Shown: positions 18,001 through 21,000 of the stretch, piece by piece
Layout: each line of letters starts with the position of its first letter
How positions within the stretch are numbered: position 1 is the first letter of the stretch
Origin: Escherichia coli
Lineage (GTDB): Bacteria > Pseudomonadota > Gammaproteobacteria > Enterobacterales > Enterobacteriaceae
Assembly: GCF_030384885.1 (NCBI RefSeq)
Contig: NZ_CP128613.1
Length of the DNA stretch: 64,000 bases
Strand: one strand, 5' to 3'
Made by a program: the position numbers

Positions 18001-21000
18001 GATCGCCGGGGTGCTGCCGGACGGTAAAGCCGAAGCGATTAAACGTCTGCAAAGTGAAGGACGTCAGGTGGCAATGGTGGGCGACGGCATTAACGACGCG
18101 CCAGCGCTGGCCCAGGCGGATGTCGGTATTGCGATGGGGGGCGGCAGCGATGTTGCCATTGAAACCGCGGCGATTACCCTGATGCGCCATAGCCTGATGG
18201 GTGTTGCGGATGCGCTCGCTATTTCCCGCGCAACGCTGCGCAACATGAAGCAGAACCTGCTCGGCGCGTTTATCTACAACAGCATTGGTATTCCGGTCGC
18301 CGCCGGTATTTTGTGGCCGTTCACTGGAACACTGCTTAACCCGGTGGTTGCCGGAGCGGCAATGGCGCTCTCGTCGATCACCGTAGTGAGTAACGCCAAC
18401 CGCTTGCTGCGGTTTAAACCGAAGGAATAAGTATGTCATTGCGGATGCGCTGCTTTAGGGTGGCGCATCTGGCATCGACGCATGCCTGCCGGATGCGGCA
18501 TAAACGCCTTATCCGGCCTACGATTCAGGCACAGGGTTGTAGGCCTGATAAGACGCGTAAGCGTCGCATCAGGCAATGGTGCTCGGATGCCGGATGCGGC
18601 GTGAACGCCTTATCCGGCATCCGAGATGAAGCGATTTTTTGGCCTTACGCGACCTTTTTGCACGTTTTTCCCGGCGTGCCAAATATTTAATCCGTCCCAA
18701 CTCCATTTGCGCCATCCCTCCCCGCGCGCTAGCATGATATTTCACAAAGGGAGGTCGTATGGATCTGTTGTACCGGGTAAAAACGCTTTGGGCCGCGCTG
18801 CGCGGCAATCATTACACCTGGCCTGCTATCGATATCTCTCTTCCCGGCAATCGCCATTTTCATCTGATTGGCAGTATTCATATGGGCAGCCACGATATGG
18901 CTCCCCTGCCCACCCGTTTGCTCAAAAAGCTCAAAAACGCCGATGCGCTGATCGTCGAGGCGGATGTTTCCACCAGCGATACGCCTTTTGCCAATTTGCC
19001 TGCCTGCGAGGCGCTGGAAGAGCGCATTAGCGAGGAGCAATTACAAAATCTGCAAAACATAAGCCAGGAGATGGGTATTTCTCCGTCGCTCTTTTCCACC
19101 CAACCACTGTGGCAAATCGCGATGGTTCTTCAGGCAACGCAGGCGCAAAAACTGGGGCTGCGGGCAGAATATGGTATCGATTACCAGCTATTGCAGGTGG
19201 CGAAGCAACAACATAAACCCGTGATTGAACTGGAAGGGGCAGAAAACCAGATTGCCATGTTGCTCCAGCTCCCTGACAAAGGACTGGCGCTGCTGGACGA
19301 TACGCTGACCCACTGGCACACCAACGCTCGTTTGCTGCAACAAATGATGAGTTGGTGGCTGAATGCACCACCGCAAAATAATGAAATAACGCTGCCGAAT
19401 ACGTTCAGCCAATCGCTGTACGATGTGCTGATGCATCAGCGAAATCTCGCCTGGCGGGATAAACTGCATGCTATGCCGCCGGGGCGCTATGTGGTCGCGG
19501 TCGGAGCTTTACATCTGTATGGAGAAGGGAATTTGCCGCAGATGTTGCGCTAAAAAAATGGCCAATATCGCTATTGGCCCGTCAAAGAGGAATTTCATTT
19601 TTTTATTATTATGCCGTCACTTTAAGCGACGGTGTAACTCGATTGTCGCTCAATCTCACCATCCTGCCAATACTCTTAGGCAAGATGACTCTTTTTTTTG
19701 GACCGCCATCAGGCGTATGCTTGCTTCGTTTTTTTGTTTAAGGCAGGAAAATTATCATGACACCCGCAGTTAAATTACTCGAAAAAAACAAGATTTCGTT
19801 TCAAATCCATACCTACGAGCACGATCCGGCTGAAACCAATTTTGGCGATGAAGTCGTCAAAAAATTAGGTTTGAATCCGGATCAGGTCTACAAAACGCTG
19901 CTGGTCGCAGTGAATGGTGATATGAAACATCTGGCAGTGGCCGTTACGCCGGTCGCCGGTCAACTGGATCTTAAAAAAGTAGCAAAAGCGCTGGGTGCCA
20001 AGAAAGTTGAGATGGCCGATCCGATGGTCGCGCAGCGTTCGACGGGATATCTGGTTGGGGGGATTAGCCCACTGGGGCAGAAAAAACGCCTGCCGACGAT
20101 TATCGACGCCCCCGCGCAAGAGTTTGCCACTATTTTTGTTTCTGGCGGCAAGCGCGGGCTGGACATCGAACTGGCGGCAAGCGACCTGGCGAAGATCCTC
20201 GATGCCAAATTTGCTGATATCGCTCGTCGCGATTAAGTGATGCACACGGAAGATGAGATGTGGAAAGGATTACAGAGACATTAAGTATCGCTTGTGCAGA
20301 TGAGATACCGGATATCGCCTTACTTCGGCAAACATCGAGAGAGAAGGTATTACATCTGCATTTTGCCAGCGAAGCAGAGAGGTATCGTGAGGAATTCGGG
20401 CTGGTGCTGAAAGCACAGCTCGATGAATTTGTTGTTGGCATGCATTCTGCCGACCCGGTTATCAGGATCGCCAGATTAATATCGCTTGAAGAGATTAACC
20501 GCCATCAGGATTTTTTCGAACACTGCGCGAAAGAATATCGTAAGCTGGCGACAGAGCTTATATTTGCATTGGCTGAACAACTGAATGTTGAGATGGCGGA
20601 AAATAACCCGCTAGTTACCTTTGCCCCCTTCAAATGCAACCGTAAGCGAAAAGGCAAAATGGGAAAGTGGCAGTATTGTTTTCACGGTTTTCATTGTGCA
20701 TTTGAGAATAAAAAAACAGAGCAAAATATTGAAGTTCCCCTCGCCTACGGCTTTGATTTCGGCGATCTGGACCCGTATTTTTTTTCCGGATTTATCAAAT
20801 CGACCCCCGACTGGCAGCCTCTGCCAGTGGCTATTTACGATGATTACCACGACGGCAGCAGGATCATTCAACAACTGCTGGCGCTGGGAAAGTTAGAAAA
20901 AATCCCTTCACCGATCCCACAATACACGGGGGTTGCTGCGGTAGATCGGTCCAATGTCGACATCGCAAATTTTCGCTCAACACTGGAGAGTCGCCTGCAC

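What the first reader, a model, noticed from the sequence alone, without database searches (positions are those of the whole stretch)
18431..18758. No ybaQ-like gene between copA and ybaP; gap occupied by a three-unit BIME
In K-12 as I recall it, a 113-aa HTH regulator gene (ybaQ) lies between ybaP and copA, making the interval about 540 bp. Here the interval is 328 bp, contains three REP units and no credible ORF. Other spacings in the window (fsr-ushA 217, ybaL-fsr 237, htpG-adk 180, recR-htpG 109, ybaP-ybaK about 204) match my recollection exactly, which supports the comparison.
Basis: partly seen in the sequence, partly recalled or inferred. Interest (0 to 1): 0.3.

Follow-up and report, generated by a model that had tools for sequence, protein, structure and literature searches.

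The report
Deleted ybaQ antitoxin gene beside BIME
In this cryptic-clade-I E. coli, the small regulator/antitoxin gene ybaQ that K-12 carries between copA and ybaP has been deleted, leaving a 56-base stump beside an ordinary three-unit REP/BIME repeat that K-12 also has; this is a known strain-to-strain polymorphism.

Summary
copA ends at 18430 and ybaP starts at 18759, a 328-bp gap. It contains three REP units (y, z2, y) and no credible gene, whereas K-12 has ybaQ there.

The interpretation needs three corrections.
1. The K-12 gap is 794 bp, not about 540.
2. The BIME does not replace ybaQ. K-12 has the same BIME at the same spot with five REPs, next to intact ybaQ, and other strains have one or three.
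3. The gap is not free of ybaQ. Positions 18645-18700 (minus strand) are a decayed 3' stump of ybaQ, matching YbaQ residues 89-111. It was left by a 352-bp deletion between GTCCCAA and GTCCCCAA repeats, plus a 12-bp deletion and a 1-bp frameshift.

ybaQ is the HigA-type antitoxin/repressor of the higB-1 toxin (Rousset et al.), and K-12 already lacks that toxin. Of 5426 complete E. coli genomes, 4834 have ybaQ and 1266 have the toxin gene. Of the 592 without ybaQ:
- 350 carry the TRIP1e repeat at this site;
- 184 carry an independent deletion;
- 44 share this window's exact junction, including SMS-3-5 and CE10.

The window is 99.98% identical to 2013C-4282 (cryptic clade I). Its spacer haplotype looks imported by a short recombination tract.

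Verdict: an ordinary, already documented polymorphism of low interest.

The parts
15926..18430 (+). copA (Cu+ P-type ATPase), left flank. The last ~430 nt (about 18004-18430) match the SMS-3-5-type rather than the clade-I-type haplotype.
   Evidence: ORF list; annotation of 2013C-4282; informative-site analysis.
18441..18473 (+). Conserved imperfect hairpin just after the copA stop. It is present in all alleles examined except the TRIP1e type. It is probably a copA 3'-end structure. It has no T-run and is not called as an intrinsic terminator.
   Evidence: Sequence; fold; allele alignment; terminator scan negative.
18488..18521 (+). REP unit 1, y type, ending in CCTAC
   Evidence: Consensus search: 1 mismatch, 0 expected by chance.
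18539..18574 (-). REP unit 2, z2 type, inverted relative to units 1 and 3
   Evidence: Consensus search: 0 mismatches. With unit 3 it matches Rfam naRNA4 RF02564 at 84.6 bits against a gathering score of 59.5.
18589..18622 (+). REP unit 3, y type. Its terminal CCTAC has changed to CATCC, which gives an extended palindrome with 21-nt arms (18582-18625).
   Evidence: inverted repeat I1; fold.
18645..18700 (-). Decayed 3' remnant of ybaQ (stop codon plus roughly the last 18-20 codons). Relative to intact alleles it carries a 12-nt internal deletion, a 1-nt frameshift in the A-run and several substitutions.
   Evidence: TBLASTN of K-12 YbaQ: residues 89-111, E = 0.003, the only match in the 64 kb with E below 1; DNA alignments to K-12 and strain 135.
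18694..18704 (.). Deletion junction (GTCCCAA|CTCC). In the intact three-REP allele, 352 bp lie between a GTCCCAA inside ybaQ and a GTCCCCAA upstream of it. The deletion removed about 81% of ybaQ and 74 bp of its upstream region.
   Evidence: Pairwise alignment with strain 135. The same junction occurs in 44 of 5426 complete genomes.
18701..18758 (+). 58 bp of ybaP upstream sequence, including the ribosome-binding site. All six distinct allele types examined share it, with single-base differences (TUM20902 also has a 6-nt duplication inside it). It is presumed to hold the ybaP promoter/5'UTR, which was not mapped.
   Evidence: Allele sequences; the promoter scan found no strong consensus.
18759..19553 (+). 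ybaP (TraB/GumN family), right flank
   Evidence: Pfam PF01963, E = 1.8e-43; annotation.

Best explanation
The copA-ybaP spacer of this cryptic-clade-I E. coli is the end state of decay of a chromosomal HigB/HigA-type toxin-antitoxin locus. It lies next to a pre-existing BIME-2 repeat.

Shown:
- The spacer contains a copA-proximal hairpin, a y-z2-y BIME-2, a 56-nt stump of ybaQ, and the conserved ybaP upstream region.
- ybaQ was removed by a 352-bp deletion whose ends lie in 7/8-nt direct repeats (GTCCCAA and GTCCCCAA).
- The stump then took a 12-bp deletion, a 1-bp frameshift and point changes.
- The BIME is independent of the loss. It sits beside intact ybaQ in other strains and varies in 101-bp steps (1, 3 or 5 REPs).

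Inferred:
- The order of events was higB-1 toxin loss first, then deletion of the now dispensable orphan antitoxin. Losing the antitoxin first is lethal where the toxin is intact.
- The deletion arose by slippage or illegitimate recombination at the short repeats.
- The deletion haplotype moved between phylogroup-F-like E. coli and clade I within a recombination tract of under 1 kb.
- The remaining BIME acts as BIME-2 elements generally do: copA mRNA 3' stabiliser or partial terminator, and a gyrase/HU-associated site. In this allele it separates copA from the co-directional ybaP.
For: Coordinates and anatomy:
- Gap coordinates.
- REP units with zero chance expectation.
- Strong folding of the spacer, z = -8.1.
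- Rfam naRNA4 hit above gathering score.

The remnant and the deletion:
- ybaQ remnant by TBLASTN, residues 89-111, the only match in the window with E below 1.
- The toxin query had no match with E below 0.4.
- DNA alignment gives 352 + 12 + 1 = 365 bp missing relative to the intact three-REP allele, with microhomology at the junction.

Independence of the BIME:
- The same BIME lies next to intact ybaQ in K-12 (period 101, 2.4 copies), strain 135 and 2011C_4247.

The full toxin-antitoxin locus elsewhere:
- The full locus, a PF05015 HigB-like toxin plus ybaQ, is at the same site in MS8345.

Census of 5426 complete genomes:
- ybaQ in 4834, the toxin gene in 1266, this junction in 44.

Recombination:
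- The window is clade-I-like in copA up to about 18000 and in ybaP from 18806. It is SMS-3-5-like in between.
- Other clade-I genomes carry TRIP1e at this site instead.

Literature:
- ybaQ represses higB-1 and is essential only where higB-1 is intact. higB-1 is lost in most phylogroups, and both genes are lost in phylogroup D: Rousset et al., bioRxiv 10.1101/2020.05.25.114553.
- BIME-2 is made of y and z2 in tandem, and copy number varies between strains: Ton-Hoang et al., PMC3333891.
Against: - The TBLASTN E-value for the remnant is modest (0.003) because the fragment is short. The case rests mainly on the colinear DNA alignment.
- The deletion mechanism is inferred from 7/8-nt microhomology only.
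- The precursor could have been a toxin-bearing allele, since the right-hand junction cannot tell the two apart.
- The direction of transfer (clade I to phylogroup F, or the reverse) is unresolved. The recombinant tract is inferred from four comparison genomes, not from a formal recombination test.
- No expression data exist for the copA 3' end, the BIME or ybaP in this allele.
- The functional roles given for the BIME are family-level inference.
- Only the 64-kb window was searched for ybaQ or higB paralogues, not the whole genome.
Confidence: 0.9

Rival explanations
1. Primary absence. This lineage never had ybaQ, and the higB-1/ybaQ cassette was inserted only in other E. coli lineages. The BIME-filled spacer would then be the ancestral state.
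For: Clade I is basal to E. coli sensu stricto (PMC10100065). Other clade-I genomes also lack ybaQ.
Against: The spacer retains the ybaQ stop codon and roughly its last 18-20 codons, colinear with intact alleles and carrying secondary decay mutations. The other clade-I genomes lack ybaQ for a different reason, the TRIP1e cassette.
Confidence: 0.03
2. The BIME replaced or destroyed ybaQ. In this reading, REP/BIME expansion or REP-associated transposase (TnpA_REP/RAYT) cleavage next to the BIME produced the deletion.
For: The deletion lies about 80 nt from the last REP. In vitro, TnpA_REP cleaves single-stranded DNA at C|T sites more than 400 nt around a functional BIME (PMC3333891).
Against: The same BIME coexists with intact ybaQ in thousands of genomes with 1, 3 or 5 REPs. 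The BIME flanks in the window are identical to those of intact alleles. An independent ybaQ deletion, the TUM20902 type found in 184 genomes, arose in an allele with no BIME at all. Simple microhomology explains the junction.
Confidence: 0.05
3. Assembly artefact: collapse or mis-join across the REP repeats removed ybaQ from the assembled sequence.
For: REP arrays are repetitive, and copy number differs between assemblies.
Against: The junction lies in unique sequence outside the REPs. The same junction, 12-bp deletion and frameshift appear in the three junction-bearing alleles sequenced here (window, SMS-3-5, 2017-02-2CC). The junction itself is found in 44 independent complete genomes, including CE10.
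Confidence: 0.01
4. Vertical inheritance without recombination. The ybaQ deletion allele is an old polymorphism that predates the split of clade I and phylogroup F and has simply been retained in both.
For: The junction and the secondary mutations are shared by divergent backgrounds. The remnant has had time to accumulate several mutations.
Against: The spacer is identical between the window and SMS-3-5 over its first 165 nt, and between the window and 2017-02-2CC over all 227 aligned nt. By contrast, copA upstream of 18004 differs by 5.8% from SMS-3-5. Informative sites switch from clade-I-like to F-like and back within about 0.8 kb.
Confidence: 0.2

Closest known systems
E. coli K-12 MG1655 copA-ybaQ-ybaP locus (b0484-b0482)
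   Same: Same flanking genes and the same copA-proximal hairpin. A BIME-2 with the same 101-bp y-z2 unit sits at the same position with the same flanking sequences. The last 58 bp upstream of ybaP differ by one base. The higB-1 toxin is absent in both.
   Different: K-12 has intact ybaQ (342 bp) with its upstream region, five REPs instead of three, and a 794-bp gap instead of 328 bp.
ybaQ-deletion allele of E. coli SMS-3-5, CE10 and 2017-02-2CC (44 of 5426 complete genomes)
   Same: The deletion junction, the 12-bp deletion and the 1-bp frameshift in the ybaQ stump are identical. The first 165 nt of the spacer are identical to SMS-3-5.
   Different: REP number and integrity differ: SMS-3-5 has two REPs plus a truncated third in a 303-bp gap, and 2017-02-2CC has one REP in a 227-bp gap. 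The flanking copA and ybaP of SMS-3-5 are about 5% divergent from the window.
higB-1/ybaQ type II toxin-antitoxin locus of B2/F strains (e.g. S88, MS8345), described by Rousset et al.
   Same: Same chromosomal site between copA and ybaP. The window's stump derives from the antitoxin gene of this module.
   Different: That locus has an intact PF05015 toxin and an intact antitoxin, no BIME, and an 869-bp gap. There ybaQ is essential. In the window both genes are gone.
TRIP1e repeat allele (Li et al. 2024, PMC10888264)
   Same: It is another ybaQ-less filling of the same copA-ybaP gap. Other clade-I genomes (EC42405, 2020CK-00188) and 350 of 5426 complete genomes carry it.
   Different: It is a 428-bp gap holding a 265-bp GC-rich structured repeat, with no REPs and no ybaQ stump, and it is unrelated in sequence to the window's spacer except for the ybaP-proximal end.
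TUM20902-type ybaQ deletion (184 of 5426 genomes)
   Same: It is an independent deletion of the orphan ybaQ that leaves the stop codon and about 20 nt of the 3' end.
   Different: Its junction differs. It arose on an allele without a BIME, its gap is 171 bp, and it retains about 30 nt more of the ybaQ-upstream sequence.

Membership tests
BIME-2 (REP cluster family of Bachellier/Gilson, as summarised in PMC3333891) | Composed of y and z2 REPs in alternating (inverted) orientation | tested here: met
   y at 18488-18521 (+), z2 at 18539-18574 (-), y at 18589-18622 (+). There are 0-2 mismatches to consensus and 0 matches expected by chance. They are cross-checked by the Rfam naRNA4 hit and by the definition.
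BIME-2 (REP cluster family of Bachellier/Gilson, as summarised in PMC3333891) | Tandem multi-copy organisation, with copy number at a locus varying between strains | tested here: met
   The repeat unit is 101 bp. The same locus holds 1, 3 or 5 REPs in different strains.
BIME-2 (REP cluster family of Bachellier/Gilson, as summarised in PMC3333891) | Short S linker between REP and iREP, and s/l/r flanking motifs (no long L motif with an IHF site) | tested here: inconclusive
   The linkers are short (17 nt at 18522-18538 and 14 nt at 18575-18588), which fits BIME-2 and not the long L linker of BIME-1. I had no reference sequences for the S, s, l and r motifs to compare.
BIME-2 (REP cluster family of Bachellier/Gilson, as summarised in PMC3333891) | Extragenic, at the 3' end of a transcription unit | tested here: met
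   It starts 58 nt after the copA stop codon. In intact alleles it lies between the convergent 3' ends of copA and ybaQ.
BIME-2 (REP cluster family of Bachellier/Gilson, as summarised in PMC3333891) | DNA gyrase binding and cleavage | not testable with these tools
   This is a biochemical property (Espeli & Boccard 1997, cited).
Rfam RF02564 naRNA4 (REP-derived nucleoid-associated RNA) | Covariance-model score above the curated gathering threshold | tested here: met
   18542-18619: 84.6 bits on the minus strand and 62.3 bits on the plus strand, against a gathering score of 59.5. The model in effect recognises a y/z2 REP pair.
Rfam RF02564 naRNA4 (REP-derived nucleoid-associated RNA) | Transcribed as an RNA that binds HU | not testable with these tools
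   No expression or binding data are available for this locus.
ybaQ / HigA-family antitoxin gene (Xre HTH regulator) | Intact ORF encoding the HTH_3 domain (residues 16-70 of YbaQ) | tested here: not met
   Only residues 89-111 are represented, with a 4-codon gap and a frameshift. The HTH region lies entirely within the deleted 352 bp. This is a gene fragment, not a member.
HigB/HigA type II toxin-antitoxin module (higB-1/ybaQ) | Adjacent HigB-like (PF05015) toxin gene upstream of the antitoxin | tested here: not met
   TBLASTN of the MS8345 toxin against the 64-kb window finds nothing with E below 0.4. The toxin is present at this site in 1266 of 5426 genomes.
TRIP1e repeat | A ~265-bp GC-rich TRIP1 sequence 38 bp downstream of copA | tested here: not met
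   The window spacer shares no sequence with the TRIP1e allele except the ybaP-proximal end.

The most novel reading that the evidence does not exclude
The copA-ybaP spacer may be a multi-allelic cassette site. At least six distinct fillings were seen here:
- higB-1 plus ybaQ;
- ybaQ with a BIME-2 of 1, 3 or 5 REPs;
- ybaQ without a BIME (inferred as the precursor of the TUM20902 deletion, not sequenced here);
- TRIP1e;
- two independent ybaQ deletions.

These fillings would be exchanged by sub-kilobase homologous recombination even between cryptic clade I and E. coli sensu stricto. The recurrent loss of the orphan antitoxin by three independent routes, in 11% of complete genomes, would argue that ybaQ has no conserved second function once higB-1 is gone. 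That runs against the suggestion in Rousset et al.
Probability: 0.45. Interest if true: 0.2.

Novelty: already known. Interest (0 to 1): 0.1.

Why it matters
It matters little beyond annotation. The result shows that a "missing gene" in this window is a lineage-specific deletion of a dispensable orphan antitoxin, not a new element. It also shows that the BIME is the same repeat K-12 has.

It does give a tidy, fully traceable example of stepwise toxin-antitoxin decay at one chromosomal site: the toxin is lost, the antitoxin is orphaned, the antitoxin is deleted, and the stump erodes. It also gives an example of a short recombinant tract between cryptic clade I and E. coli sensu stricto.

For pipelines, the 56-nt stump could be flagged as a ybaQ pseudogene fragment.

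Tried and rejected
- Looked for a ybaQ or higB-1 homologue anywhere in the 64-kb window by TBLASTN. Only the stump was found.
- Tested the ORFs overlapping the gap (85, 79 and 134 aa) against Pfam. Nothing was significant.
- Scanned for sigma-70 promoters and intrinsic terminators in 18300-18900. None met the thresholds, so neither the copA terminator nor the ybaP promoter could be placed.
- Considered that the BIME displaced ybaQ. Rejected, because the BIME coexists with intact ybaQ in K-12 and other strains.
- Considered primary absence. Rejected because of the remnant.
- Considered that the 428-bp filling in P31_YH1 and EC42405 might be a new structured RNA, after a weak TwoAYGGAY hit of 31.5 bits, below the gathering score of 43. 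It is the published TRIP1e repeat.
- At first assumed the window was phylogroup F, because the junction is shared with SMS-3-5 and CE10. Rejected, because the flanks are about 5% divergent from SMS-3-5 and the window is 99.98% identical to the clade-I strain 2013C-4282.
- Did not run the expensive genome or metagenome collection scans for outgroups. The remnant already gives the polarity of the change for this window.
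Full report
**Observation**

Consensus searches find three REP units:
- a y-type REP at 18488-18521 (+);
- a z2-type REP at 18539-18574 (-);
- a second y-type REP at 18589-18622 (+).

No such matches occur in 100 shuffles of the window. The two y units are 101 bp apart. As RNA, 18425-18650 folds far better than shuffled sequence (-120 kcal/mol, z = -8.1). The z2-y pair scores above the Rfam gathering threshold for naRNA4, a REP-derived RNA family (84.6 bits against 59.5).

The ORFs that overlap the spacer have no significant Pfam match. PGAP calls no gene there in the near-identical genome 2013C-4282 or in SMS-3-5.

**Comparison with K-12**

In MG1655, ybaQ (b0483, 113 aa) lies between ybaP and copA.

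The extra length exists because K-12 has the same BIME at the same place. It is a 101-bp-period array of 2.4 copies, five REPs in the order y-z2-y-z2-y, lying between the convergent 3' ends of copA and ybaQ. Strain 135 has three REPs plus intact ybaQ in a 693-bp gap. Strain 2011C_4247 has one REP plus intact ybaQ in a 592-bp gap. The BIME therefore does not stand in for ybaQ. Copy-number variation of BIME-2 between strains at one locus is a textbook property (Ton-Hoang et al., PMC3333891).

**What is left of ybaQ**

Aligning the window spacer with K-12 and with strain 135 shows that homology continues past the third REP. It runs through a 22-nt spacer into the ybaQ stop codon and the end of the gene (18645-18700, minus strand). 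It then jumps to the sequence just upstream of ybaP.

Relative to the intact three-REP allele, the window lacks three pieces, which sum to the 365-bp difference:
- 352 bp, bounded by GTCCCAA inside ybaQ and GTCCCCAA 74 bp upstream of it;
- a further 12 bp inside the stump;
- 1 bp in its A-run.

TBLASTN of K-12 YbaQ against the whole window finds only this stump below E = 1 (residues 89-111, E = 0.003). The HigB-like toxin query finds nothing below E = 0.4. The gene was therefore present and then deleted, and the stump has since eroded.

**What ybaQ is**

YbaQ carries an Xre-type HTH (PF01381) and RefSeq annotates it as a HigA-family antitoxin. In strains such as MS8345, a PF05015 HigB-like toxin gene sits immediately upstream of ybaQ at this same site, with no BIME.

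Rousset et al. (bioRxiv 10.1101/2020.05.25.114553) reported four things:
- ybaQ is essential only in strains with intact higB-1;
- ybaQ knockdown derepresses higB-1;
- higB-1 is missing from most phylogroups, including K-12;
- both genes are lost in phylogroup D.

RASTA-Bacteria had already called YbaQ a solitary antitoxin in 2007. Gao et al. made a viable K-12 ybaQ deletion. Loss of ybaQ in a background without the toxin is thus expected to be tolerated. Where the toxin is intact, loss of ybaQ is not tolerated, so the toxin must have been lost first (inference).

**Census across 5426 complete E. coli genomes**

ybaQ DNA is present in 4834 genomes and the toxin gene in 1266. The 592 genomes without ybaQ break down as follows:

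| Filling of the copA-ybaP gap | Genomes | Source |
|---|---|---|
| 428-bp filling identified as the published TRIP1e repeat | 350 |; Li et al. 2024, PMC10888264, |
| Independent deletion on a BIME-less allele (TUM20902 type) | 184 | |
| Exactly this window's junction, including SMS-3-5, CE10 and 2017-02-2CC | 44 | |
| Unassigned | 14 | by subtraction |

Of the junction-bearing genomes, I sequenced three alleles: the window, SMS-3-5 and 2017-02-2CC. All three carry the same 12-bp deletion and frameshift, but they differ in REP number:
- three REPs in the window;
- two REPs plus a truncated third in SMS-3-5;
- one REP in 2017-02-2CC.

This points to one ancestral deletion followed by BIME copy-number change.

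**Source and mosaicism**

The window is 99.98% identical to E. coli 2013C-4282, differing by one indel and four SNPs over 33 kb. That strain belongs to cryptic clade I (PMC10100065). This explains the 94-97% identity to K-12.

Two other clade-I-like genomes, EC42405 and 2020CK-00188, carry TRIP1e at this site, not the BIME and stump.

I examined the sites where EC42405 and SMS-3-5 differ:
- The window follows the clade-I state through copA up to about 18000.
- It then follows mostly the SMS-3-5 state to the end of copA.
- It returns to the clade-I state from 18806 in ybaP.

Divergence from SMS-3-5 drops from 5.8% to 2.8% over the last 427 nt of copA. The first 165 nt of the spacer are identical to SMS-3-5.

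The simplest reading is a sub-kilobase recombinant tract carrying the deletion haplotype. Its direction is unresolved, and no formal recombination test was run.

**Mechanism and function**

Shown:
- the anatomy of the spacer;
- the deletion and its microhomology;
- the independence of the BIME from the gene loss;
- the population frequencies.

Inferred:
- the deletion arose by slippage or illegitimate recombination at the 7/8-nt repeats;
- the toxin was lost before the antitoxin;
- the loss was neutral.

The BIME presumably does here what BIME-2 elements do elsewhere: mRNA 3' protection or partial termination, and gyrase or HU association. In this allele it separates the co-directional copA and ybaP, whereas in K-12 it lies between convergent genes.

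No strong promoter or intrinsic terminator was detected. All six distinct allele types examined keep the last 58 bp before ybaP, with only single-base differences and one 6-nt duplication (in TUM20902). The ybaP control region probably lies there.

**Rivals**

- Primary absence is contradicted by the stump.
- Destruction by the BIME, or RAYT-mediated deletion, is unlikely. The BIME coexists with intact ybaQ in most genomes, and an independent deletion arose without any BIME.
- An assembly artefact is excluded by the 44 independent genomes with the same junction in unique sequence.
- An old shared polymorphism without recombination remains possible but fits the haplotype switch poorly.

**Verdict**

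The feature is a lineage-specific deletion allele of a known variable gene, next to a known variable repeat. It is already documented in substance by Rousset et al. for ybaQ/higB-1, Ton-Hoang et al. for BIME variability and Li et al. for the alternative TRIP1e filling. Interest is low.

Noticed in passing
window 20260-21434: Two extra co-directional genes lie between ybaK and ushA: a DUF6896 protein (266 aa, PF21837) and an overlapping 125-aa hypothetical protein. K-12 has only a 36-bp gap there. The pair is also present in MS8345 and EC42405.
   Followed up: partly
L005 2032-2459; L012 6130-6557 (other strains, same copA-ybaP site): An alternative 428-bp filling of the same spacer occurs in 350 of 5426 genomes and in other clade-I strains. 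It is the published TRIP1e repeat. Its ~270-nt core occurs about 3 times per genome. It gives a weak, sub-threshold TwoAYGGAY RNA hit (31.5 bits against 43).
   Followed up: yes
window 1-13099: Part of a giant BapA-related adhesin gene (siiEA, running off the window's start) and a TolC-family outer-membrane protein gene (11744-13099) lie beyond ybaT, where K-12 has cueR. The window differs from 2013C-4282 by a 1-nt indel near 11005 inside siiEA, which is annotated as frameshifted in 2013C-4282.
   Followed up: partly
window 26598-27348 and 31069-31641: Small hypothetical genes absent from K-12 occur at two places: two between ybaL and gsk, and one (190 aa) between hemH and adk. A y-type REP lies at 31642-31675, next to the latter.
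   Followed up: no
window 16900-17900 (central copA): copA is mosaic relative to K-12. It is about 98% identical in the first 500 nt but only 90-92% in the 1000-2000 nt region, which is more divergent than neighbouring genes. This suggests older recombination within copA.
   Followed up: partly
window 18582-18625: The third REP has lost the conserved CTAC (GTAG complement), reading CATCC instead of CCTAC. This creates an unusually long, near-perfect palindrome with 21-nt arms. By the criteria in PMC3333891, loss of the tetranucleotide should make that unit a poor TnpA_REP substrate.
   Followed up: no
window 19552-19635 (-): The ChiX/SroB sRNA gene lies in the ybaP-ybaK spacer (Rfam RF00368, 82 bits), as in K-12.
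   Followed up: yes
L003 2431-2900 vs L001 (K-12 ybaQ upstream): In K-12-type alleles the higB-1 ORF appears to have been removed, and a different ~80-nt sequence lies upstream of ybaQ. By eye there is some similarity between the K-12 ybaQ-upstream region and the higB-1 upstream region of MS8345. This suggests that the operon promoter was retained.
   Followed up: no
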